Assembly: GCA_964630965.1 (NCBI GenBank)
Contig: CAZVXB010000001.1
Span: 1-35,043, forward strand
Direction of reading: 5' to 3'
DNA length: 35,043 nucleotides
Origin: Candidatus Woesearchaeota archaeon
Lineage (GTDB): Archaea; Nanobdellota; Nanobdellia; Pacearchaeales; GW2011-AR1
The notes under the pieces are model-generated. The model did not search any database, was not told the DNA's origin, and saw only the letters and a list, made by a program, of their open reading frames with translations. The position numbers and the translations under genes were made by a program. Shown here piece by piece: positions 3,577-25,694 of this stretch (the first letter of the stretch is position 1; each line of letters opens with the position of its first letter).

Positions 3577-4788
3577 TTACTCGTATCGAAGAGCATCTAC
3601 AGTCTTAAGGCCACTTGCTTGCCACGAAGGTATCAAACCTGAAAGGGCTCCAATGCAGAAACTAAATAACAAGCAACCAACCACAAGCCAGAGAGGGAGT
3701 GCTGCTTGAAGCAAGGTTACTCCGAAAAGAGTTATTACAATAAATTCAATCCCCTTGCTAATTCCTATTCCTAATATCACGCCCACAATCCCTCCCACAA
3801 GACCCAACAACCCTGATTCAATCAAAAATATAGTCAATATATCTCGATTGCGTGCACCAATCGCTTTCATAATACCAATCTCTCGTGTACGCTCAAGTAC
3901 TGAAGTGTACATAGTATTCGTGATACCAATCCCTCCCACAAGAAGAGAAATCGCCGCAATGCCAAGCAAGAAACCGGTTATGATGGACAACACGCTTCCA
4001 AAAGTAGCAGTTAATTCTTCAGGAGTGAGAATAGTAAAGTCTTGCGTTTTTTCGTCGACATTACGGAACGTGCGAAGCTTGCGTTCAACTCGAGAGGCAA
4101 CCTCTTCAACACTAGAGCTATGGTCTGCCTGAACTACAATCATATCAACACGACTAGTGATATTTGTAAGGGCTCGAATATCTTCGATAGACATGAGGAT
4201 AGTACGGTCATCGCCAGGATTTCCAAGTGGTTGAAGGATAGTTCGTACACGAAACTCTTGCCCATTAATCTTTATTTTATCATTCGCATGTACGGGAACA
4301 TCAAAAAGGGCCCTATATTTGAACTGACTCCCCAACATAACTTCTCTTTGATCTCCTTCTTCCAAGAATCGCCCCTCATCTATCTTATAAGCTCCGTTCT
4401 CGAGGAAAAGATCTCCCGTATCAAGAGGGTAACCTGCCGACGTTAAAAACCGTTTTTGATTTTTGAATTCAACTTCAACTGAACTTGCAGTCCAGTAGCT
4501 CACATCTTGTACTCCCACTACTTTCTCAATGGCTTCAACATCATCAAGACTTAAACTAACTGCACCCCCTGTTCCAGGTCCTGCGAGTTGTCCTCTGGGT
4601 TGAATAAAAAATTTATCTCCGCCTAAAAGTCTAAACTGTTCTTGAACTGCTTCTTGCAAACCTATAGATAAACTCACAAGTGTAAAGATGGTCGCAATTG
4701 AAATGAAAATACCTAACATAGTCAACCAACTTCGAACACCCCGACGTGCAAGCGTTCTCATGGCCATTGTGAAATAATCGCTAATCAT
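3577..4788 (-). CDS. ABC transporter permease, FtsX/MacB family (paralogue 2)
   Basis: 403 aa. Topology is an N-terminal TM (RSWLTMLGIFISIATIF), a ~230-aa extracytoplasmic domain, then three C-terminal TMs with the FtsX core SVLERTREIGIMKAIGA. Its start has an ATGA overlap with the upstream permease stop. Confidence 0.85.
   Translation of the reverse strand: MISDYFTMAMRTLARRGVRSWLTMLGIFISIATIFTLVSLSIGLQEAVQEQFRLLGGDKFFIQPRGQLAGPGTGGAVSLSLDDVEAIEKVVGVQDVSYWTASSVEVEFKNQKRFLTSAGYPLDTGDLFLENGAYKIDEGRFLEEGDQREVMLGSQFKYRALFDVPVHANDKIKINGQEFRVRTILQPLGNPGDDRTILMSIEDIRALTNITSRVDMIVVQADHSSSVEEVASRVERKLRTFRNVDEKTQDFTILTPEELTATFGSVLSIITGFLLGIAAISLLVGGIGITNTMYTSVLERTREIGIMKAIGARNRDILTIFLIESGLLGLVGGIVGVILGIGISKGIEFIVITLFGVTLLQAALPLWLVVGCLLFSFCIGALSGLIPSWQASGLKTVDALRYE
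3782..3963. repeat. 182-bp tract 181/182 identical to 4987..5168 (inside permease paralogue 2)
   Basis: Compared base by base. The single mismatch is at 3796 (c) versus 5001 (t). The flanks diverge immediately on both sides. Confidence 0.95.
4702..4740. repeat. 39-bp tract identical to 5916..5954 (N-terminal TM1 region of both permeases)
   Basis: aatgaaaatacctaacatagtcaaccaacttcgaacacc is present in both copies and encodes GVRSWLTMLGIFI. The offset is 1214 nt, versus 1205 nt for the 182-bp tract. Confidence 0.9.
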
Positions 4789-6002
4789 GAGCGCAGGGCC
4801 TTCACGGTATTAAGTCGTGATGCTTGTAATGCAGGTAACGCTCCTGAAATAAGTCCAATGGTACAGGAGAAGACAACTGCACCTATAACGAGAAGAGGGG
4901 AAAATCCGACAGTGAGTTCAATTCCTCCAAGTGCCTGCCCGGCAATAGTGGAGGCGGCAAACGCTAACCCTAATCCGACAGTAGCTCCCACAATCCCTCC
5001 TACAAGACCCAACAACCCTGATTCAATCAAAAATATAGTCAATATATCTCGATTGCGTGCACCAATCGCTTTCATAATACCAATCTCTCGTGTACGCTCA
5101 AGTACTGAAGTGTACATAGTATTCGTGATACCAATCCCTCCCACAAGAAGAGAAATCGCCGCAATGCCCGTTACAATTGCATTAATAACAATAAGAACGG
5201 TGTTAACACCCTGAAGTGCTTGAATGGGAGTCTCAACCGAGAAGTCTTCTTCACCAAGGTCCTGTTTACGATCTTTGCGCAAAGCTCGTTCAATCGATTC
5301 TGCCGTTTCAGTTACTCTATCCTTATCAGAGACCTTAACTGCAATGAGGTCTATTTCATCATCAAGATCTAGAATGTCTCGCATATCTTCTTCACTCATG
5401 AAGATAGCACTATTAATTTGAAAAGAACCGGCCTTATCTAAAAACCCAATAACTTCGAAAGGTCTATCTTGAATAGTTAACGTTGTTCCAACGCGAATTG
5501 GTTTATCAAAATCATCACTATCTGCAAAGTCATCTCCTAAAAGAATTTTACCGCGGTCAGAGTCTTCTATAAATCTTCCTTCTGCAACTCCAATGGTAAA
5601 TGTCTCATATACGGCATCAATGTCTTCTTGCTTTTTAGGGAGGCTTACCAAATACTCATAGTCTGCAACATCGTTATATTCAACTTCTCCAACTCGAATA
5701 AGGCGAGGAATAGCACTTTCAACATTAGGTACGGAAGCAACAAGTTCAAGATCATGTTCTCCCAGAGAACGTATGGCTGTGCTTCCCGGAGGCCCGAATC
5801 CAGTTCCTACGTTCGTTATAACGAGTCTATCGGGGCCGATAGAAGCAAACTGCCCCGTTACGGCTTCTTGGAGTCCCTGTGCCAAAGAAATAAGAGAGAC
5901 AACAGCAGCTATGCCAATGAAAATACCTAACATAGTCAACCAACTTCGAACACCTCGGTGTCTAACATTAGAAAATGCAAGCACCACTAAATCAGATAGC
6001 AT
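4785..6002 (-). CDS. ABC transporter permease, FtsX/MacB family (paralogue 1)
   Basis: Same architecture as paralogue 2. The track start at 6065 is TTG and would overlap the upstream gene. The ATG at 6002 (MLSDLVVLAFSNVRHRGVRSWLTML) lies 2 nt after the upstream stop at 6005 and aligns with the N-terminus of paralogue 2. Confidence 0.85.
   Translation of the reverse strand: MLSDLVVLAFSNVRHRGVRSWLTMLGIFIGIAAVVSLISLAQGLQEAVTGQFASIGPDRLVITNVGTGFGPPGSTAIRSLGEHDLELVASVPNVESAIPRLIRVGEVEYNDVADYEYLVSLPKKQEDIDAVYETFTIGVAEGRFIEDSDRGKILLGDDFADSDDFDKPIRVGTTLTIQDRPFEVIGFLDKAGSFQINSAIFMSEEDMRDILDLDDEIDLIAVKVSDKDRVTETAESIERALRKDRKQDLGEEDFSVETPIQALQGVNTVLIVINAIVTGIAAISLLVGGIGITNTMYTSVLERTREIGIMKAIGARNRDILTIFLIESGLLGLVGGIVGATVGLGLAFAASTIAGQALGGIELTVGFSPLLVIGAVVFSCTIGLISGALPALQASRLNTVKALRS
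4987..5168. repeat. 182-bp tract 181/182 identical to 3782..3963 (inside permease paralogue 1)
   Basis: See the partner copy. It encodes AAISLLVGGIGITNTMYTSVLERTREIGIMKAIGARNRDILTIFLIESGLLGLVGGIVG in both proteins. Confidence 0.95.
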
Positions 6003-6004
6003 CG

Positions 6005-6853
6005 CTAGGAGGCGGCACTCAGACGGGACTTGCGTCGCTTGCGTATCATGCGCCAGACAATCCAAATAACTATGATGAGAACTACTGCTCCAACATAAAA
6101 GGGAATATAACTTTGCGTAATAATTCCTCGCTCAATTGCTTCTTCACGGGTATACGCTCGAACAGGCAATCGAATTTCTTCTGTCTGTCGTTGGTTGTCA
6201 AGGTCTCGATAACTCACCGTTGCAACAAGCGTTGATCGCTCACGAGTGTAAAGAACATCAAACGTAGCAGTCTCAAAATCATCAGAATCAACAGTTCCAA
6301 TATACACTTCTTCATCAGATAACAATGTCATTCCTTCACTCGCAACGCTAACGGAGACAAACCGAGCATCAGCAAGACCATCATTGATAATTTTCAATGT
6401 CAACGTATCTTTTCCCCCTACAACAGCACTCACAGGTTCAACAGTTGCCCGTAGCTCTGGCGAACCACCAACATGAACTCCAATAGCTCCCTTGCGCACG
6501 GTTCGTTCACCATTGAGAATGTAGCTTATTTCATAGGGGAGCTGATAATCTCCAGGTTTAACATCGTACGAAGGTTTGATTATGAATGAGAAATCTTCAT
6601 CTCGTCCGTCACGTAGTTCATCTGTGCTTTCTTCAGAACCGCCAACCGCGATGAATGAGGTACCCGAAAGGACAAAACCAAATGAGAGATCTTCCACATC
6701 TTCGTCAAGAGTGTTTTTTATGGTGACCACTACCGAGCTCTCTTTTCCAGGTGCAAGCGCAGGAGCATGTACACTTTGAATAACTACTGCTGAAACTAAG
6801 GGGCTGGCAACTAAGAGTAAAAATACCAATGCAATACTTACTAAATTCTTCAT
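6005..6853 (-). CDS. secreted, C-terminally membrane-anchored protein with two beta-sandwich (CARDB/COG1361-like) repeats
   Basis: Signal peptide MKNLVSIALVFLLLVASPLVSA. Two repeats of the type L.PG....v.v.i.N.....v..v.v have acidic linkers. The C-terminus has a TM (FYVGAVVLIIVIWIVW) and a basic tail RMIRKRRKSR. I chose the start at 6853 on promoter spacing; an ATG at 6868 is also possible. The family assignment is by pattern only. Confidence 0.5.
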   Translation of the reverse strand: MKNLVSIALVFLLLVASPLVSAVVIQSVHAPALAPGKESSVVVTIKNTLDEDVEDLSFGFVLSGTSFIAVGGSEESTDELRDGRDEDFSFIIKPSYDVKPGDYQLPYEISYILNGERTVRKGAIGVHVGGSPELRATVEPVSAVVGGKDTLTLKIINDGLADARFVSVSVASEGMTLLSDEEVYIGTVDSDDFETATFDVLYTRERSTLVATVSYRDLDNQRQTEEIRLPVRAYTREEAIERGIITQSYIPFYVGAVVLIIVIWIVWRMIRKRRKSRLSAAS

Positions 6854-6874
6854 AATCGTTCCGACCATTTTACC

Positions 6875-6882
6875 TTTAAAAA
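6875..6882 (-). promoter_or_regulatory. TATA-like box (internal promoter) for the repeat-protein/permease genes
   Basis: The plus strand reads tttaaaaa. Its centre is about 25 nt from the ATG at 6853. Confidence 0.4.
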
Positions 6883-6914
6883 CGTTTCTATTTGTAACTG
6901 TCTAGTTAATACAA

Positions 6915-7625
6915 TTAAACTTTTTTCCACACAGAACCGACCTTTTTAGTCACTTTCTCAATTCGTCCATCCTTGACCCAGTAAATAGTTCGAGCATGAG
7001 CCAGGGCTTTTTCAGGGTCGTGAGTAACCATGATAATCGTTGTCCCCTTTCGGTTAAGTTCTTCAAGAAAGCCCATGACTTCTTCTCCTGTTTGCGTGTC
7101 AAGATTGCCTGTGGGCTCGTCTGCAAGTATTACTTCCGGGTTATTGGCTAATGAACGTGCAATGGCCACACGTTGTTGTTGGCCTCCCGAAAGTTGATTG
7201 GGATAGTGATCCATTCGGTCTCCTAGTTTAACCAATGTCAGAAGCTCTTCCGCCCGTTTCTCTCGATGCTCTCTATCAATATCCTGGAAAAGGAGAGGGA
7301 GCATAATATTTTCTTTTGCCGTTAAATTAGGGATAAGATTGAAACTTTGAAAAATGAATCCTATTTTCTTCCCGCGTAACTGGGCGACTTCCGATTCCGA
7401 AAAGTGTGATATATCTCTTCCGCTTAATTTTATAGATCCCTTCGTAGGAACGTCCAGGCTTCCCACGAGATTCATGGCGGTTGACTTGCCTGACCCCGAA
7501 GGCCCCATAATTGCAATAAAATCTCCTCGTTCAATAGTAATTGAGACTCCGTCTAATGCCTTTACAAGAGACTCTCCCATTTGGTAGTATTTTGCAACAT
7601 GTTCCAATTCTATGATTCGTTCCAT
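6915..7625 (-). CDS. ABC transporter ATP-binding protein (MacB/LolD-like NBD)
   Basis: Walker [11 protein letters not shown]-loop, signature [15 protein letters not shown], Walker [12 protein letters not shown] and H-loop VTHD. Confidence 0.95.
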
Positions 7626-9114: not shown

Positions 9115-9135
9115 CATGCCGGTAGTGAGTATAAA

Positions 9136-9249
9136 GAAGACAGCATCCGTGTTTCGCCTCTGTTCGGAGACTAACGCGCCGGACGCAATCGGCTTAACTT
9201 CTGTGTTCGGAAAGGGAACAGGTGTGGCCCGATTGCTGTGGCCGTCTTC
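9136..9249 (-). rRNA. 5S ribosomal RNA (orphan copy; ends approximate to a few nt)
   Basis: The reverse complement reads GAAGACGGCCACAGCAAUCGGGCCACACCUGUUCCCUUUCCGAACACAGAAGUUAAGCCGAUUGCGUCCGGCGCGUUAGUCUCCGAACAGAGGCGAAACACGGAUGCUGUCUUC. It contains the universal CCGAACACAGAAGUUAAGC loop C/helix III motif. A 9-bp helix I forms between the termini (GAAGACGGC/GCUGUCUUC, one G-U). A T-run follows the 3' end. Confidence 0.9.
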
Positions 9250-9270
9250 ATAATCTCTGCCACACATGTC

Positions 9271-9278
9271 TTTAAAAA
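9271..9278. promoter_or_regulatory. shared or bidirectional TATA-like box between 5S rRNA (minus) and the kinase-like gene (plus)
   Basis: TTTAAAAA centred at 9274.5, which is 25.5 nt from the 5S 5' end (9249) and 26.5 nt from the ATG at 9301. Confidence 0.5.
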
Positions 9279-9300
9279 GATTTCGTTAGCTCTTAAAATA

Positions 9301-9885
9301 ATGTCGTACAATGCATTGGCCGTTTCAGGTGACCCTTGTTCCGGAAAGACAGAACTAATCAAACGACTCGTAGAACGTCTTGGCTGGGAAGCAGGTTCTA
9401 TAGGAGGCATGTTTAGGGCAACGTTTGAATCCTGGAAAGAGACTACTCCTCTAAGAAGCCAGTCTGAAAATGATTTCGATTATTGGTGGGCTCATACGGT
9501 ATCTAATGAAATTATCAGAAAGGTAAACCTCGATGCAACAGACCGATTAGTAAAGGGAAACTATATTTTAGACTCAAGATATGCGATTCAAAACGTCAAA
9601 GGGCTCTCAAACGTAGCAGTCATCTATTTAACGGCCCCTCTAGAAGTTAGAGCTCAACGCGCCATAGATTCGGGCCGATATCCTGGTATTTCTCTACACG
9701 GTGCCGGAGGGGTAATGGAAATACTCCATCGAAGATCACAAGAGGAATATAGAAGAGGGTTTGAACTCTATGGCTTTGATTATCGAGATCTAAGAAATTA
9801 TGATATCATCCTTAACACGGGCAGACTAACTATTGAACAAGAACATGCCCAAGTCTGCACACTCTTAAACCAAAGAGTTAAGTAA
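9301..9885 (+). CDS. P-loop kinase, cytidylate-kinase-like (divergent paralogue)
   Basis: I chose the ATG at 9301 (MSYNALAVSGDPCSGKTE) because the longer track ORF would run through the 5S gene. The P-loop is GDPCSGKT. The C-terminal half aligns by eye with the next gene (LD.R/K......V..YL.A....RAQR......R...E). Confidence 0.55.
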   Translation: MSYNALAVSGDPCSGKTELIKRLVERLGWEAGSIGGMFRATFESWKETTPLRSQSENDFDYWWAHTVSNEIIRKVNLDATDRLVKGNYILDSRYAIQNVKGLSNVAVIYLTAPLEVRAQRAIDSGRYPGISLHGAGGVMEILHRRSQEEYRRGFELYGFDYRDLRNYDIILNTGRLTIEQEHAQVCTLLNQRVK

Positions 9886-11462: not shown

Positions 11463-11546
11463 GTGGGCGTGCCGGAGCGGTCAAACGGGTCGGTCTCAAG
11501 AGCCGATAGCTTAGTGCTTTCAGAGGTTCGAATCCTCTCGCCCACA
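11463..11546 (+). tRNA. tRNA-Leu(CAA)
   Basis: Acceptor GUGGGCG/CGCCCAC with discriminator A. Anticodon stem UCGGU/GCCGA and loop CUCAAGA. Long variable arm UAGCUUAGUGCUUUC. T arm AGAGG-UUCGAAU-CCUCU. No encoded CCA. Confidence 0.9.
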
Positions 11547-11549
11547 CTT

Positions 11550-11624
11550 GCCCTCGTAGCTCAGCCCGGATAGAGCAATGGGGTCCTAACCCGGAGGTCG
11601 AAGGTTCAAATCCTTCCGAGGGCG
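11550..11624 (+). tRNA. tRNA-Arg(CCU)
   Basis: Acceptor GCCCUCG/CGAGGGC with discriminator G. D arm GCUC-AGCCCGGAUA-GAGC. Anticodon loop GUCCUAA. T arm GAAGG-UUCAAAU-CCUUC. It starts 3 nt after tRNA-Leu. No encoded CCA. Confidence 0.88.
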
Positions 11625-11636
11625 GTTCCCATAAAG

Positions 11637-11645
11637 TTTAAAATA
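11637..11645 (+). promoter_or_regulatory. TATA-like box for tRNA-Gly
   Basis: TTTAAAATA with its centre 27 nt upstream of 11668. Confidence 0.5.
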
Positions 11646-11667
11646 CATTCTCAACAGCTCCTTACAT

Positions 11668-11738
11668 GCGCGGTTAGTTTAATGGCAAAATAGCTGGTTT
11701 CCAACCAGCGGTCACGGGTTCGATTCCCGTACCGCGCA
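11668..11738 (+). tRNA. tRNA-Gly(UCC)
   Basis: Acceptor GCGCGGU/ACCGCGC with discriminator A. Anticodon stem GCUGG/CCAGC and loop UUUCCAA. T arm ACGGG-UUCGAUU-CCCGU. No encoded CCA. Confidence 0.9.
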
Positions 11739-11763
11739 TCCTAAATACTACGTCAAGAATAAC

Positions 11764-23275: not shown

Positions 23276-24982
23276 ATGGGTTGCGGTTGCAACGATCCTA
23301 TGAAAAAGATTGACAAGAAGATGCTTCTTGCAGCATGGTCTATTAACAATGTTAATTGGATCATCAATCAAGCCTATAATCTCCCTCTAAGGGATATTTT
23401 TACAACCGTAGTAAATTTCGATCCCCAGGAAGAAATTTATAAATATGGAAAAAAGAAAATGAATCAAAGGTTTTTAGAAATATTAAAAAAAGAAAAGCCA
23501 GATTATATCCATCTCTTTTTAGTATGGGATGAGTTTTATCCTGAAACTCTAATAAAAATAAAAGAAATTCTCCCCAGTGTCAAGGTTACTCACTGGAACG
23601 GAGATGATGACATAAAATTCGAGAACTATACTTTGCCGTATGCAACAACAATAGACTATCAATTCATAAGTCAACTTCAATTTGCAAAGCGTTACAATGC
23701 TGCCGGAATACCTTGGTTTGATATGTTGGGGGCAGATATTGAAAAGTTTAGGCCCCTAAAAGTTAAGAAAAAATATGAGGTTGCATTTGTAGGGACGCCA
23801 AAGGGTGATCGTCTAAAATATATGCGTTTTCTTCTAAAAAAAGGCGTTAACTTCGTGCTCGCAGGAGCAGGATGGAATGATTATCCGGAGTTTAAAGAAC
23901 ATTATATTGGAAAATTAGGGGACGAAGAATTCGTTAAACTCATTAACGAAACGAAGATTAATTTGTGTTTTTCACAAAACTTTTTTGCCTCCCCTCACGT
24001 ATTGGAAAGGTCACTTGCAGTAAATGCCTGCAAATCCTTCGCGTTAACAGAATATGTCGAAGGATATTTTCCGAAATTCAAAGAAGGGTTTGATTTTGCC
24101 AGTTTTAAAACAGAAGAAGAGTTATATGAAAAAATAAATTATTACTTAAAGAAAGAAGAAGAAAGAGAGAAAATAGCTGAAAGGGCATACAAAACCGTAA
24201 CAAAGAATTTTTCAAACCAAAAAATGATGCGTGATGCCTATAAGGCAATAGAAAAAGACAAAGGCCCCCTTTATAGTCTAACTACAAGAAAGTATTTAGA
24301 AGAAAGTCCGGTTTACCTAGACAAGAAAGATTTTAAGAAAGGGGCAGACCACATAAAAAATAAGATTGTCAACTCGAAATATATTGGATTTAGAAACGTA
24401 TATCATGAACCTCTTCCTTACAAAGATTACTACCAAACGTACACTTTAGATATGACAAAAAAACCACTTTCTATATGTGATTCTTATCTAAATTCATTAT
24501 TAATAGGGGACTATGCTTCTTTATCATTGTATTACGCTTATAATTATCTCAAAGATCAGAACTATGTTTATGATAATATAGATATTTCTCAAATCATGGT
24601 TGAGAAAAAATATTTTCTTGAACATCTTAATCTATTTGCAGGAATGTATCAAAATAAAAAGTTTAAGATAAACCCTGAAGAAGTTTCTTTTTTAAGTATT
24701 CCTCTTGTTCGAACAAAGAAAGTAACGAAAATACCTATAATAAATTCAGACCACATTCTATTTACTTACCTTGATTTGAATTTGGTCGTTTTAAGAAACC
24801 AAAAGAGGTTATTCAGAGACCCTTACATTTACAAGCTTATTTTTTATTCTATCTTTGTTAATCCTCAAATAGCAAAACATCTTCTTGTAAATATCTTAAA
24901 ACGTAGTAAAAACCCTTATGCCCTTAAGGTTTCTAATTTCTTTGGCAAGTTCTTTAAGCCTGCACAATTGAAGAATTGTTAG
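23276..24982 (+). CDS. CgeB-like glycosyltransferase (DUF3880 + Glyco_trans_1_2-like) with a ~235-aa C-terminal extension of unknown function
   Basis: The central region YEVAFVGTPKGDRLKYMRFLLKKGVNFVLAGAGW...INLCFSQN...ERSLAVNACKSFALTEY...FKTEEELYEKINYYLKKEEEREKIAERAYKTV resembles the CgeB/spore-maturation-type GT family. An alternative start at 23300 (MKKIDKK) fits the promoter spacing better. Confidence 0.55.
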   Translation: MGCGCNDPMKKIDKKMLLAAWSINNVNWIINQAYNLPLRDIFTTVVNFDPQEEIYKYGKKKMNQRFLEILKKEKPDYIHLFLVWDEFYPETLIKIKEILPSVKVTHWNGDDDIKFENYTLPYATTIDYQFISQLQFAKRYNAAGIPWFDMLGADIEKFRPLKVKKKYEVAFVGTPKGDRLKYMRFLLKKGVNFVLAGAGWNDYPEFKEHYIGKLGDEEFVKLINETKINLCFSQNFFASPHVLERSLAVNACKSFALTEYVEGYFPKFKEGFDFASFKTEEELYEKINYYLKKEEEREKIAERAYKTVTKNFSNQKMMRDAYKAIEKDKGPLYSLTTRKYLEESPVYLDKKDFKKGADHIKNKIVNSKYIGFRNVYHEPLPYKDYYQTYTLDMTKKPLSICDSYLNSLLIGDYASLSLYYAYNYLKDQNYVYDNIDISQIMVEKKYFLEHLNLFAGMYQNKKFKINPEEVSFLSIPLVRTKKVTKIPIINSDHILFTYLDLNLVVLRNQKRLFRDPYIYKLIFYSIFVNPQIAKHLLVNILKRSKNPYALKVSNFFGKFFKPAQLKNC

Positions 24983-25694
24983 AAATTTTTCTCCAAAGTG
25001 AAACATCAAGGGACGAATCTGCTGCTCTTTTTGTTGGAGAAATTTTATTTATTTCTTCAAGAGTTTTTGCTTTTATACTAGGCTTATATTTTTTCAAAAT
25101 AGTATAGAGGCTCGCACGATCACATCCCACATTAAGGGTTCCTATAAACGAGCTTCCAATAATATTTTCTATGGCCCTGGCCAATTCAGAAACAGGTATT
25201 TTCGAGCAAAAGCCGTCAATTGCAGCACTTTCATAAGGGATATTTAGGGGGTCAAAGAAGCTTGTTCGTACTACGCAGTGGTTTGGAGTTAGATGTGCGG
25301 CACATTCTCCTCCAAGTTTTGTCCAAGCATAAGTATTAACAGGTATAACTGCATCCCGTTCACTATAAGGCCCTTTAGTGCAAGGATAGACGTAATCTGT
25401 TGAGATGTAAACGAATCGCGTTCCTGGATTTATTGCCTGTACAACATGGGCGGTTCCGATTACGTTTACGTTAAATGCCTCGACAGGATTCTTCTCACAT
25501 TCGACCATATTAACCAGGGCTGCACAATGAACGACTGCTCCAATCGAGTGTTTTTTAATGAATAAACTAACTGATTCTTTATTCGTTATATCCATTTCTT
25601 GCCTAGTAGGTGCAATGCATCTACTACCTAATAGACTTACAAGTGCTTGACCAAGTTTACCTGTTCCCCCGGTAATTAAGACTTTATCCTTCAT
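24954..25694 (-). CDS. short SDR, RmlD-like NDP-4-ketosugar reductase
   Basis: MKDKVLITGGTGKLGQAL, STDYVY, and catalytic YAWTK. At 246 aa it is shorter than typical RmlD. Confidence 0.6.
   Translation of the reverse strand: MKDKVLITGGTGKLGQALVSLLGSRCIAPTRQEMDITNKESVSLFIKKHSIGAVVHCAALVNMVECEKNPVEAFNVNVIGTAHVVQAINPGTRFVYISTDYVYPCTKGPYSERDAVIPVNTYAWTKLGGECAAHLTPNHCVVRTSFFDPLNIPYESAAIDGFCSKIPVSELARAIENIIGSSFIGTLNVGCDRASLYTILKKYKPSIKAKTLEEINKISPTKRAADSSLDVSLWRKISNNSSIVQA

What the first reader, a model, noticed from the sequence alone, without database searches (positions are those of the whole stretch)
3782..5168. Patchy concerted evolution between tandem FtsX permease paralogues: a 182-bp (181/182) tract and a 39-bp identical tract in otherwise diverged genes
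The two adjacent permease genes are strongly diverged over their ~230-aa extracytoplasmic domains and their last TM. They nevertheless contain a 182-bp tract that is identical except for one base (3782..3963 versus 4987..5168). They also share a perfect 39-mer (4702..4740 versus 5916..5954). The long tract encodes the end of TM2, the cytoplasmic loop SVLERTREIGIMKAIGARNRD and TM3. The short tract encodes the start of TM1 (GVRSWLTMLGIFI). By analogy with MacB/FtsEX, these are the cytoplasm-proximal elements expected to dock onto the single shared ATPase. This looks like recent gene conversion restricted to the NBD-interface modules, while the external, presumably substrate- or partner-specific, domains remain free to diverge. 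It also predicts a heterodimeric permease. The alternative explanation is an assembly artefact at a repeat.
Basis: partly seen in the sequence, partly recalled or inferred. Interest (0 to 1): 0.65.

Follow-up and report, generated by a model that had tools for sequence, protein, structure and literature searches.

The report
Recurrent gene conversion between tandem permeases
Two old, neighbouring ABC-transporter membrane genes of a tiny (DPANN) archaeon keep copying one short stretch (the piece that carries the ATPase-coupling helix) onto each other, and relatives do the same independently; this is a clean new example of a known process, not a new kind of system.

Summary
3782..3963 and 4987..5168 match at 181 of 182 bases, and the one mismatch is synonymous. 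4702..4740 equals 5916..5954 exactly. These are the only long direct repeats in the 35-kb window. They lie in two tandem MacB/FtsX-type permease genes (A 6002..4785, B 4788..3577, minus strand) that are otherwise saturated (dS about 2.3, 32% amino-acid identity).

A and B each have their own orthologues in DPANN archaea, so the duplication is old. In an 18-genome set, trees of the 183-nt tract pair A with B of the same genome in 15 genomes. Bootstrap support is 95-100 in 7 of them. The rest of the gene splits all A from all B in 200 of 200 replicates. In 14 of 55 tandem pairs from independent assemblies, identical runs of 40 nt or more sit at this same segment. No such run occurs in the extracytoplasmic domain. 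This is recurrent short-tract interlocus gene conversion and not an assembly chimera.

The tract covers the cytoplasmic half of TM2, the coupling helix and most of TM3. Both tracts coincide with the family's two most conserved motifs. I therefore favour similarity-limited, self-reinforcing conversion over selection for ATPase matching. E. coli LolC/LolE share one ATPase and show no tract. It is a new member of a known kind, of moderate interest.

The parts
4785..6002 (-). Permease A, 405 aa, MacB-type (type VII ABC) membrane subunit. It starts at the ATG at 6002.
   Evidence: Pfam MacB_PCD (2.8e-30) plus FtsX (1.5e-19). MacB structure 5LIL matches at E 7e-39 over residues 13-403. 405-aa orthologues at 55-71% identity. 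The AF2 model shows an elbow helix, TM1, an extracytoplasmic domain at 59-257, TM2, a coupling helix at 304-312, TM3 and TM4.
3577..4788 (-). Permease B, 403 aa, paralogue of A. Its ATG overlaps the stop of A by 4 nt (ATGA).
   Evidence: Pfam MacB_PCD (2.8e-26) plus FtsX (3.5e-20). It has its own orthologues at 52-59% identity and only 37-44% identity to A-type proteins.
4987..5168 (-). Long conversion tract, copy in A. Codons 279-339: cytoplasmic half of TM2, coupling helix, most of TM3.
   Evidence: 181/182 identical to 3782..3963. dS 0.04 against 2.25 in the rest of the gene. Structural mapping.
3782..3963 (-). Long conversion tract, copy in B (codons 276-336).
   Evidence: The single synonymous mismatch is at 3796.
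5916..5954 (-). Short conversion tract, copy in A. Codons 17-29, GVRSWLTMLGIFI, the cytoplasmic start of TM1. A is the probable donor.
   Evidence: Perfect 39-mer. The sequence matches the A-type consensus RG[IL]RSWLTMLGIFI.
4702..4740 (-). Short conversion tract, copy in B (codons 17-29). B is the probable recipient.
   Evidence: Window B carries A-type residues (G17, W21, M24) where B orthologues have RKLRSxLT[LI][LV]GI. It returns to B-type (SIATIF) right after the tract. P about 6e-5 for 13 of 13 identical codons.
6005..6868 (-). CARDB/DUF11-domain protein, 287 aa, whose ORF translation shows a hydrophobic N-terminal stretch and a hydrophobic stretch near the C-terminus. It is a conserved operon partner and is not involved in the repeat.
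   Evidence: Pfam CARDB 1.2e-8. Found between the ATPase gene and A in most relatives.
6915..7625 (-). The single ABC ATPase gene of the operon (MacB-NBD/LolD-like, 236 aa).
   Evidence: Pfam ABC_tran 4.5e-36. Best NCBIfam matches are the MacB NBD, LolD and FtsE, all below the equivalog cut-offs. 57-75% identical in relatives.

Best explanation
The two tracts are the footprints of recent, short-tract, non-reciprocal homologous recombination (interlocus gene conversion) between two anciently duplicated, tandem MacB-type permease genes of a DPANN archaeon.

Shown:
- The duplication predates the divergence of many Woese-/Pacearchaeota-like lineages.
- In most of those lineages the TM2-coupling helix-TM3 segment has been homogenised independently and repeatedly. 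The hot-spot core is A residues about 291-320.
- The extracytoplasmic domain and TM4 evolve as strictly separate A and B lineages.
- Weaker, rarer conversion occurs at the start of TM1 and at the C-terminal motif.

Inferred:
- Conversion is confined to these segments because they are the family's most conserved peptide motifs. Purifying selection on the protein keeps enough nucleotide similarity there for strand invasion.
- Each conversion restores identity and so favours the next one, which makes the process self-reinforcing.
- The flanks are about 45% identical, which stops heteroduplex extension and gives sharp borders.
- Conversions that did reach into the paralogue-specific domains would be removed by selection.
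- A lineage that goes too long without conversion drifts out of reach (L009).

The permeases probably form an A-B heterodimer on a dimer of the single ATPase, as LolC and LolE do on LolD. That is inferred from synteny only.
For: Identity and synonymous-site statistics in the window come.

Separate A and B orthologues at 52-60% identity, with the same gene order, are found in many MAGs and metagenome contigs.

Nearest-neighbour test: in the tract, the closest of 35 sequences is the same-genome paralogue for 27 of 36 genes. In the rest of the gene that paralogue ranks 16th-31st.

NJ trees with 200 bootstraps:
- Tract: A_i and B_i are sisters in 15 of 18 genomes. Support is 95-100 for window, L001, L002, L082, L083, L086 and L089. 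The A|B split appears in 0 of 200 replicates.
- Rest of the gene and the extracytoplasmic domain: the A|B split appears in 200 of 200 replicates, and no A_i and B_i are sisters.

Lineage-specific residues are shared by both paralogues of a genome, for example AKNQDIVV in L001, KSIGAKNSDVLW in L082 and EIGIMKAIGARNRD in the window.

The tract dS values of the 18 pairs form a graded series from 0.04 to about 2, while the rest of the gene is saturated.

Region-wise counts over 55 pairs:
- TM2-CH-TM3: identical runs of 40 nt or more in 14 pairs.
- Extracytoplasmic domain (222 codons): no run of 30 nt or more.
- TM1: 2 pairs with 30 nt or more.
- C-terminus: 1 pair with 30 nt or more.

Codon identity given amino-acid identity is 0.83 at residues 291-310. 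The within-genome baseline is about 0.47, and orthologues give about 0.40.

An independent tool confirms the repeats in L001, L083, L002, L086 and L089, and finds none in L009.

The locus-finding tool picked ER[TR][KR]EIG[VIT]M and G[ILV]RSWLT[MI]LG as the most conserved stretches. These are exactly the two tracts.

Immediately adjacent pairs carry longer runs than pairs split by inserted genes (one-sided Mann-Whitney P 0.02, n = 11 versus 7).
Against: No reads are available, so the window's own assembly cannot be verified directly.

De Bruijn-graph bubble popping could have erased a few true differences inside the tract. The one surviving mismatch lies 14 nt from the tract edge, where a bubble would not close. 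The conversion may therefore be somewhat older than dS 0.04 suggests. This is inference.

The similarity-limited account of the restriction is not separated from selection-based accounts by my data. The absence of paralogue-specific residues inside the tract could be a result of long-term conversion rather than its cause.

The distance effect is not corrected for phylogeny.

The donor of the long tract is unresolved.
Confidence: 0.85

Rival explanations
1. Selection-maintained homogenisation. Conversion tracts persist specifically because both permeases must dock on one ATPase. Homogenising the docking modules keeps both co-adapted to it, while the external domains are free to specialise.
For: The hot-spot core includes the coupling helix (AF2 H304-312; MacB alignment; PMC5985334). 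The two minor hot spots lie at the cytoplasmic start of TM1 and at the C-terminal motif, and LolD contacts the C-terminal sequence in LolCDE. One ATPase gene per operon is conserved.
Against: Most of the tract encodes membrane-embedded TM2 and TM3, not interface. In the window the elbow helix and the C-terminal helix, both ATPase contacts in LolCDE, are not converted. L009 retains both genes with no sign of conversion and 59% residue identity in the segment. E. coli LolC/LolE share LolD with no tract, the longest identical run being 15 nt. The tracts coincide with the most conserved motifs, which a purely mechanical model predicts. I ran no test of co-variation with the ATPase.
Confidence: 0.15
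2. Assembly artefact. The identical tracts were created by repeat collapse, chimeric joining or consensus polishing in a metagenome assembly.
For: The contig appears to be a metagenome assembly with no independent copy: the cluster of P0001 has one member on one contig. Bubble popping can homogenise near-identical repeats (my own knowledge).
Against: Both genes are full length, and each has flanks of its own paralogue type on both sides of the tract. One mismatch is retained. An artefact cannot turn sequence that is about 65% identical into identical sequence. The same tract at the same place, at 81-97% identity and with normal decay patterns, is seen in contigs from different projects whose names indicate different assemblers (NODE_, k141_ and JGI contigs).
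Confidence: 0.03
3. Constraint at the nucleotide level. An RNA or DNA element embedded in the coding sequence, or extreme codon selection, keeps the two copies identical without recombination.
For: None specific. The segment is the most conserved part of the protein.
Against: Orthologues in other genomes share only about 0.40 codon identity at identical residues in the tract, the same as elsewhere, whereas same-genome paralogues reach 0.72-0.83. There is no Rfam hit in the genes. The promoter-like and terminator-like hits in the operon do not exceed the shuffle expectation.
Confidence: 0.01

Closest known systems
mtrA-1/mtrA-2 of Methanococcales and Methanomicrobiales (Wang et al. 2015, PMC4632066), together with the survey of long-lasting concerted evolution in prokaryotes (PMC6053082)
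   Same: These are ancient archaeal paralogues in one operon. One domain is homogenised again and again by gene conversion over long periods, while another part stays distinct. The survey treats such recurrent concerted evolution as rare, listing 26 genes.
   Different: Here the genes are MacB-type ABC permeases of DPANN archaea. The homogenised piece is only about 60 codons inside an otherwise orthologously evolving gene, so whole-gene trees show no concerted evolution at all. ABC permeases are not among the 26 genes of the survey.
LolCDE (E. coli), a heterodimeric type VII ABC transporter
   Same: Two paralogous 4-TM permeases with large external domains and a single ATPase species. The coupling helix lies between TM2 and TM3. 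The ATPase also contacts the C-terminal sequence and the elbow helix.
   Different: LolC and LolE show no conversion tract: 28% identity, longest identical run 15 nt. The window proteins score far below the LolC, LolE and MacB equivalog cut-offs. The archaeal operon carries a CARDB-domain protein and has no LolA- or MacA-like partner. Heterodimer formation is not shown here.
Archaeal group II chaperonin paralogues (Archibald and Roger 2002; cited from my own knowledge, the paper was not retrieved)
   Same: Repeated gene conversion between archaeal paralogues that co-assemble, with patchy tracts.
   Different: A different protein family with unlinked genes. I could not check the details in the library.
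Mosaic divergence of tandem paralogues through interlocus gene conversion (HMA4 in Arabidopsis halleri, bioRxiv 10.1101/2025.10.29.685298)
   Same: Tandem copies in which the rate of conversion varies along the gene, giving a mosaic of homogenised and diverged segments.
   Different: That case is eukaryotic, recent and intron-containing. Here the paralogues are saturated outside the tract and the mosaic recurs across deep lineages.

Membership tests
Interlocus gene conversion / concerted evolution | Same-genome paralogues are more similar to each other than to their orthologues in the segment | tested here: met
   The partner is the nearest neighbour for 27 of 36 genes in the tract, and ranks 16th-31st in the rest of the gene.
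Interlocus gene conversion / concerted evolution | The similarity extends to synonymous sites and is not explained by protein constraint | tested here: met
   Tract dS 0.04 against 2.25 elsewhere. 59 of 61 identical codons against a 0.47 background, P 3e-17. Orthologues show no excess of identical codons.
Interlocus gene conversion / concerted evolution | Phylogenetic discordance between the segment and its flanks | tested here: met
   The A|B split appears in 0 of 200 replicates in the tract and 200 of 200 in the rest. A_i and B_i are sisters in 15 of 18 genomes.
Interlocus gene conversion / concerted evolution | Recurrence in independent lineages | tested here: met
   14 of 55 pairs carry identical runs of 40 nt or more at the same segment, and tract dS forms a graded series.
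Interlocus gene conversion / concerted evolution | Physical verification that both copies exist as assembled (reads, long reads) | not testable with these tools
   No read data. There is only indirect support from correct flanks and from independent assemblies.
MacB-type (type VII) ABC transporter permease | MacB_PCD external domain between TM1 and TM2, plus a C-terminal FtsX domain | tested here: met
   Pfam hits lie above the gathering score for both proteins. MacB structures match at E 7e-39.
MacB-type (type VII) ABC transporter permease | [quoted passage not shown] | tested here: met
   AF2 model of A with mean pLDDT 79: H18-53, H259-302, H304-312, H317-357, H369-395. Topology as described in PMC5985334.
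MacB-type (type VII) ABC transporter permease | A cognate MacB/LolD/FtsE-like ATPase | tested here: met
   Adjacent ATPase gene. Its best NCBIfam matches are the MacB NBD, LolD and FtsE.
LolC/LolE (lipoprotein release) or MacB proper | Score above the curated equivalog cut-off | tested here: not met
   lolCE 65-69 bits against a cut-off of 362. MacB 115-150 bits against 966. The proteins are not members of these subfamilies.
Heterodimeric permease on a homodimeric ATPase (LolCDE-like assembly) | A and B form one complex with two copies of the ATPase | not testable with these tools
   Only synteny, co-retention and the 4-nt start/stop overlap point that way. Multimer modelling is not available.

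The most novel reading that the evidence does not exclude
The conversion hot spot is not just tolerated but selected. Repeated homogenisation of the coupling-helix module would be the way these reduced-genome archaea keep two specialised permease halves co-adapted to a single, fast-evolving ATPase. Lineage-specific coupling-helix variants would then be installed in both subunits at once. This would be a case of gene conversion acting as a co-evolution device inside a molecular machine.
Probability: 0.15. Interest if true: 0.6.

Novelty: new member of a known kind. Interest (0 to 1): 0.42.

Why it matters
It adds a well-documented case of long-lasting concerted evolution confined to about 60 codons inside genes that otherwise evolve as clean orthologue lineages. 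It is the first such case I could find for MacB/FtsX-type ABC permeases or for DPANN archaea.

Whole-gene phylogenetic screens such as the 2018 survey of 26 genes would probably miss such segmental cases, so they may be commoner than thought.

In practice, the tract can mislead orthology assignment, recombination-unaware phylogenies and metagenome assembly at this locus.

The lineage-specific coupling-helix variants shared by both paralogues give a natural data set for asking which coupling-helix residues co-vary with the ATPase in type VII ABC transporters.

The finding also shows that homologous recombination works on very short, diverged substrates in these uncultivated archaea.

Tried and rejected
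1. GC-biased gene conversion. GC3 of the hot spot is 0.286, against 0.278 for the other TM segments and 0.266 for the extracytoplasmic domain. The differences are not significant.

2. An embedded RNA or regulatory element. There is no Rfam hit in the genes. The promoter-like and terminator-like hits in the operon do not exceed the shuffle expectation. Orthologues show no synonymous-site conservation.

3. A general property of heterodimeric type VII transporters. E. coli lolC/lolE show no tract.

4. A third copy elsewhere in the window acting as donor. No other match to the 39-mer or to the tract exists, and no other FtsX-type ORF is present.

5. Donor direction of the long tract. A-type and B-type consensus sequences are nearly the same inside the tract, so only a weak hint of A to B comes from residue I280. 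The direction is clear only for the 39-mer, which went A to B.

6. The 59-62-nt 'exact matches' reported for L037 and L064 were artefacts of overlapping ORF calls. They disappeared after start-codon trimming.

7. Literature searches pairing gene conversion with FtsX, MacB, Lol or DPANN found nothing relevant. The Archibald and Roger chaperonin papers were not in the library.

8. Co-variation between the coupling helix and the ATPase was not attempted. About 15 genomes with all three genes are too few.
Full report
**1. What is in the window**

The region 3577..7625 on the minus strand is a four-gene operon.
- An ABC ATPase at 7625..6915.
- A 287-aa CARDB/DUF11-domain protein at 6868..6005. Its ORF translation has a hydrophobic N-terminal stretch and another near the C-terminus.
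- Permease A at 6002..4785, 405 aa.
- Permease B at 4788..3577, 403 aa.

Both permeases carry the Pfam domains MacB_PCD and FtsX. Permease A aligns with MacB crystal structures over its full length (5LIL, E 7e-39). The start codon of B overlaps the stop of A by 4 nt. The ATG of A at 6002 lies just after the stop of the CARDB gene, and it gives the 405-aa length shared by all orthologues. The ORF finder's TTG at 6065 is therefore not the start.

Flanking genes encode archaeal ribosomal proteins and an RNA polymerase subunit (my reading of the translations). The closest homologues come from Woesearchaeota, Pacearchaeota and Nanoarchaeota MAGs. The host is therefore a DPANN archaeon.

**2.

3782..3963 and 4987..5168 are 181/182 identical. 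The only difference is a synonymous third-position change at 3796 versus 5001. 4702..4740 and 5916..5954 are an identical 39-mer, and shuffles of the window expect 0.00 such matches. These are the only direct repeats of 30 nt or more in the 35-kb window.

In the codon alignment the long tract is A residues 279-339 and B residues 276-336. The short tract is residues 17-29 of both genes.

| Region | dS | dN |
|---|---|---|
| Long tract | 0.04 | 0 |
| 39-mer (13 codons) | 0 | 0 |
| Rest of the genes | 2.25 | 0.85 |

Outside the tracts, amino-acid identity is 32%. Shuffled codon columns never give a run longer than 31 nt, against 167 observed. Outside the tracts, 47% of identical-residue codons are identical. 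Given that rate, the tract has P about 3e-17 and the 39-mer has P about 6e-5.

**3. The duplication is old**

Scans of one-genome-per-species contigs and of JGI metagenomes returned 160 loci. Of these, 54, plus the window itself, hold tandem permease pairs, giving 55 pairs in all. In 18 genomes (window, L001-L009, L045, L081-L083 and L086-L089) the upstream gene is 50-60% identical to A. The downstream gene is 51-59% identical to B, and cross-identities are only 36-45%. A and B are therefore separate orthologue lineages that predate these deeply diverged genomes. Orthologues are at most 67% identical at the nucleotide level outside the tract, and GC3 ranges from 0.12 to 0.46. The order ATPase-CARDB-A-B is conserved.

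**4. Conversion is recurrent and always at the same place**

Across the pairs, the longest identical nucleotide runs between tandem paralogues fall at A residues about 278-306.

| Locus | Longest identical run (nt) |
|---|---|
| L001 | 171 |
| window | 167 |
| L083 | 117 |
| L002 | 106 |
| L086 | 97 |
| L089 | 91 |
| L008 | 65 |
| L027 | 63 |
| L090 | 53 |
| L005 | 50 |

Further pairs carry runs of 41-45 nt. Pairs such as L009, L016 and L047 show only 9-12 nt. The repeat finder confirms this independently.

Counts by region over the 55 pairs:

| Region | Pairs with long identical runs |
|---|---|
| TM2-coupling helix-TM3 block | 14 with 40 nt or more |
| Extracytoplasmic domain (222 codons) | 0 with 30 nt or more |
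| Start of TM1 | 2 with 30 nt or more (window 39, L092 32) |
| C-terminal motif | 1 with 30 nt or more (L086, 35 nt) |

Pooled over the 18 genomes, codon identity given residue identity peaks at 0.83 for residues 291-310. The baseline is about 0.47. Orthologues compared between genomes give about 0.40 in the tract, the same as elsewhere. The signal is therefore within-genome homogenisation. It is not nucleotide-level constraint.

**5. Phylogenetic test**

For the 183 tract nucleotides, the nearest of 35 sequences is the same-genome paralogue for 27 of 36 genes. For the rest of the gene that paralogue ranks 16th-31st.

Neighbour-joining trees with 200 bootstraps give the following.
- Tract: A_i and B_i are sisters in 15 of 18 genomes, with support of 95-100 in seven of them. 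The A|B split is never recovered.
- Rest of the gene and extracytoplasmic domain: the A|B split appears in 200 of 200 replicates, and A_i and B_i are never sisters.

Lineage-specific residues in the tract are shared by both paralogues of a genome. Tract dS across the 18 pairs runs from 0.04 to about 2, and the mosaic maps show tracts at every stage of decay. This is the signature of repeated, independent conversions.

**6. Is it an assembly artefact?**

This is unlikely for three reasons.
- Each window gene has flanks of its own paralogue type on both sides of the tract.
- One mismatch survives inside the tract.
- The same phenomenon, including intermediate identities of 81-97% that no collapse could create, appears in contigs from different projects. 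Their names indicate different assemblers (NODE_, k141_ and JGI contigs).

One caveat is my own inference. Bubble popping in a de Bruijn graph could have removed a few true differences inside the tract. The surviving mismatch sits 14 nt from the edge, where a bubble would not close. The last conversion may therefore be older than dS 0.04 implies.

**7. Structure**

The AF2 model of A has mean pLDDT 79. Its elements are:

| Element | Residues |
|---|---|
| N-terminal elbow helix | 2-14 |
| TM1 and stalk | 18-53 |
| External domain | 59-257 |
| Stalk and TM2 | 259-302 |
| Short helix | 304-312 |
| TM3 | 317-357 |
| TM4 | 369-395 |
| C-terminal helix | 399-404 |

[quoted passage not shown] The long tract thus covers the cytoplasmic half of TM2, the coupling helix and most of TM3. 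The 39-mer covers the cytoplasmic start of TM1.

In LolCDE the ATPase engages the coupling helix, the C-terminal sequence and the elbow helix (bioRxiv 10.1101/2021.04.06.438740). In the window only the first of these three lies in a tract.

**8. Why there**

The two tracts are exactly the two peptide stretches that the locus-finding tool picked as the most conserved in the family, ER[TR][KR]EIG[VIT]M and G[ILV]RSWLT[MI]LG. Even in unconverted pairs, the best-matching 40 codons always lie at this segment, with 60-75% nucleotide identity.

The simplest model is mechanical. Protein-level constraint keeps enough local nucleotide similarity for recombination to start. Each event restores identity and favours the next. 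Flanks of about 45% identity stop the tract.

Three observations are consistent with this model.
- Minor hot spots occur at the other conserved motifs.
- L009 seems to have escaped conversion, and its segment has drifted to 59% residue identity.
- Immediately adjacent pairs have longer runs than pairs split by inserted genes. The one-sided Mann-Whitney P is 0.02, without phylogenetic correction.

Selection to keep both subunits matched to one ATPase is possible but is not required. L009 retains both genes with no sign of conversion. E. coli LolC and LolE share LolD with no tract, the longest identical run being 15 nt. I found no GC-biased conversion signal.

For the 39-mer the donor was A. Window B carries A-type residues within the tract and returns to B-type directly after it. 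The donor of the long tract is unresolved.

**9. Comparison with what is known**

Interlocus gene conversion and long-lasting concerted evolution in prokaryotes are established. The closest analogue is mtrA-1/mtrA-2 in methanogens, where one domain is homogenised over very long periods while the other stays distinct (PMC4632066). A genome-wide survey lists 26 such genes and includes no ABC permease (PMC6053082). My searches found no paper that links gene conversion with FtsX, MacB or Lol permeases, or with DPANN.

The permeases belong to the MacB-type superfamily but fall far below the LolC, LolE and MacB equivalog cut-offs.

**Verdict**

The adaptive 'NBD-interface' reading is only partly supported. 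This is a new member of a known kind and of moderate interest.

Noticed in passing
window 6002..6065: The mechanical ORF call for permease A starts at the TTG at 6065 (426 aa). The real start is almost certainly the ATG at 6002 (405 aa, like every orthologue), which lies just after the stop of the upstream CARDB gene.
   Followed up: yes
window 6005..7625; L001-L009, L027, L034, L081-L090 and others: The four-gene cassette ATPase / CARDB-domain membrane protein / permease A / permease B is conserved across many DPANN lineages. The CARDB protein matches no NCBIfam model. It may be the external partner of this MacB-type machine, and its function is unknown.
   Followed up: partly
L086 4127..4212 versus 5337..5422: A third, rarer conversion spot lies at the C-terminal motif (PSYQASKLKPVDAL). 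It is an 86-nt repeat at 84% identity with a 35-nt identical core. This region corresponds to the C-terminal ATPase-contacting sequence of LolC/LolE.
   Followed up: partly
L005 7215..8538; L004 7215..8059: In some relatives two or three small ORFs (118-197 aa) with overlapping start and stop codons are inserted between permease A and permease B. I did not examine their function. Pairs split in this way tend to have shorter conversion runs.
   Followed up: partly
L029 3218..5775: An Altiarchaeota contig carries a tandem pair that is 78% identical in protein over the whole length. This indicates either a recent duplication or whole-gene conversion, unlike the segment-limited pattern elsewhere.
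   Followed up: no
window 9135..9249 (-) and 11463..11741 (+): A 5S rRNA gene and a cluster of three tRNA genes (Leu-CAA, Arg-CCT, Gly-TCC). The mechanical ORF at 9238..9885 overlaps the end of the 5S gene by a few bases.
   Followed up: no
window 24001..25000: A local dip in G+C to 0.30, against about 0.40 in the surrounding sequence. Not examined.
   Followed up: no
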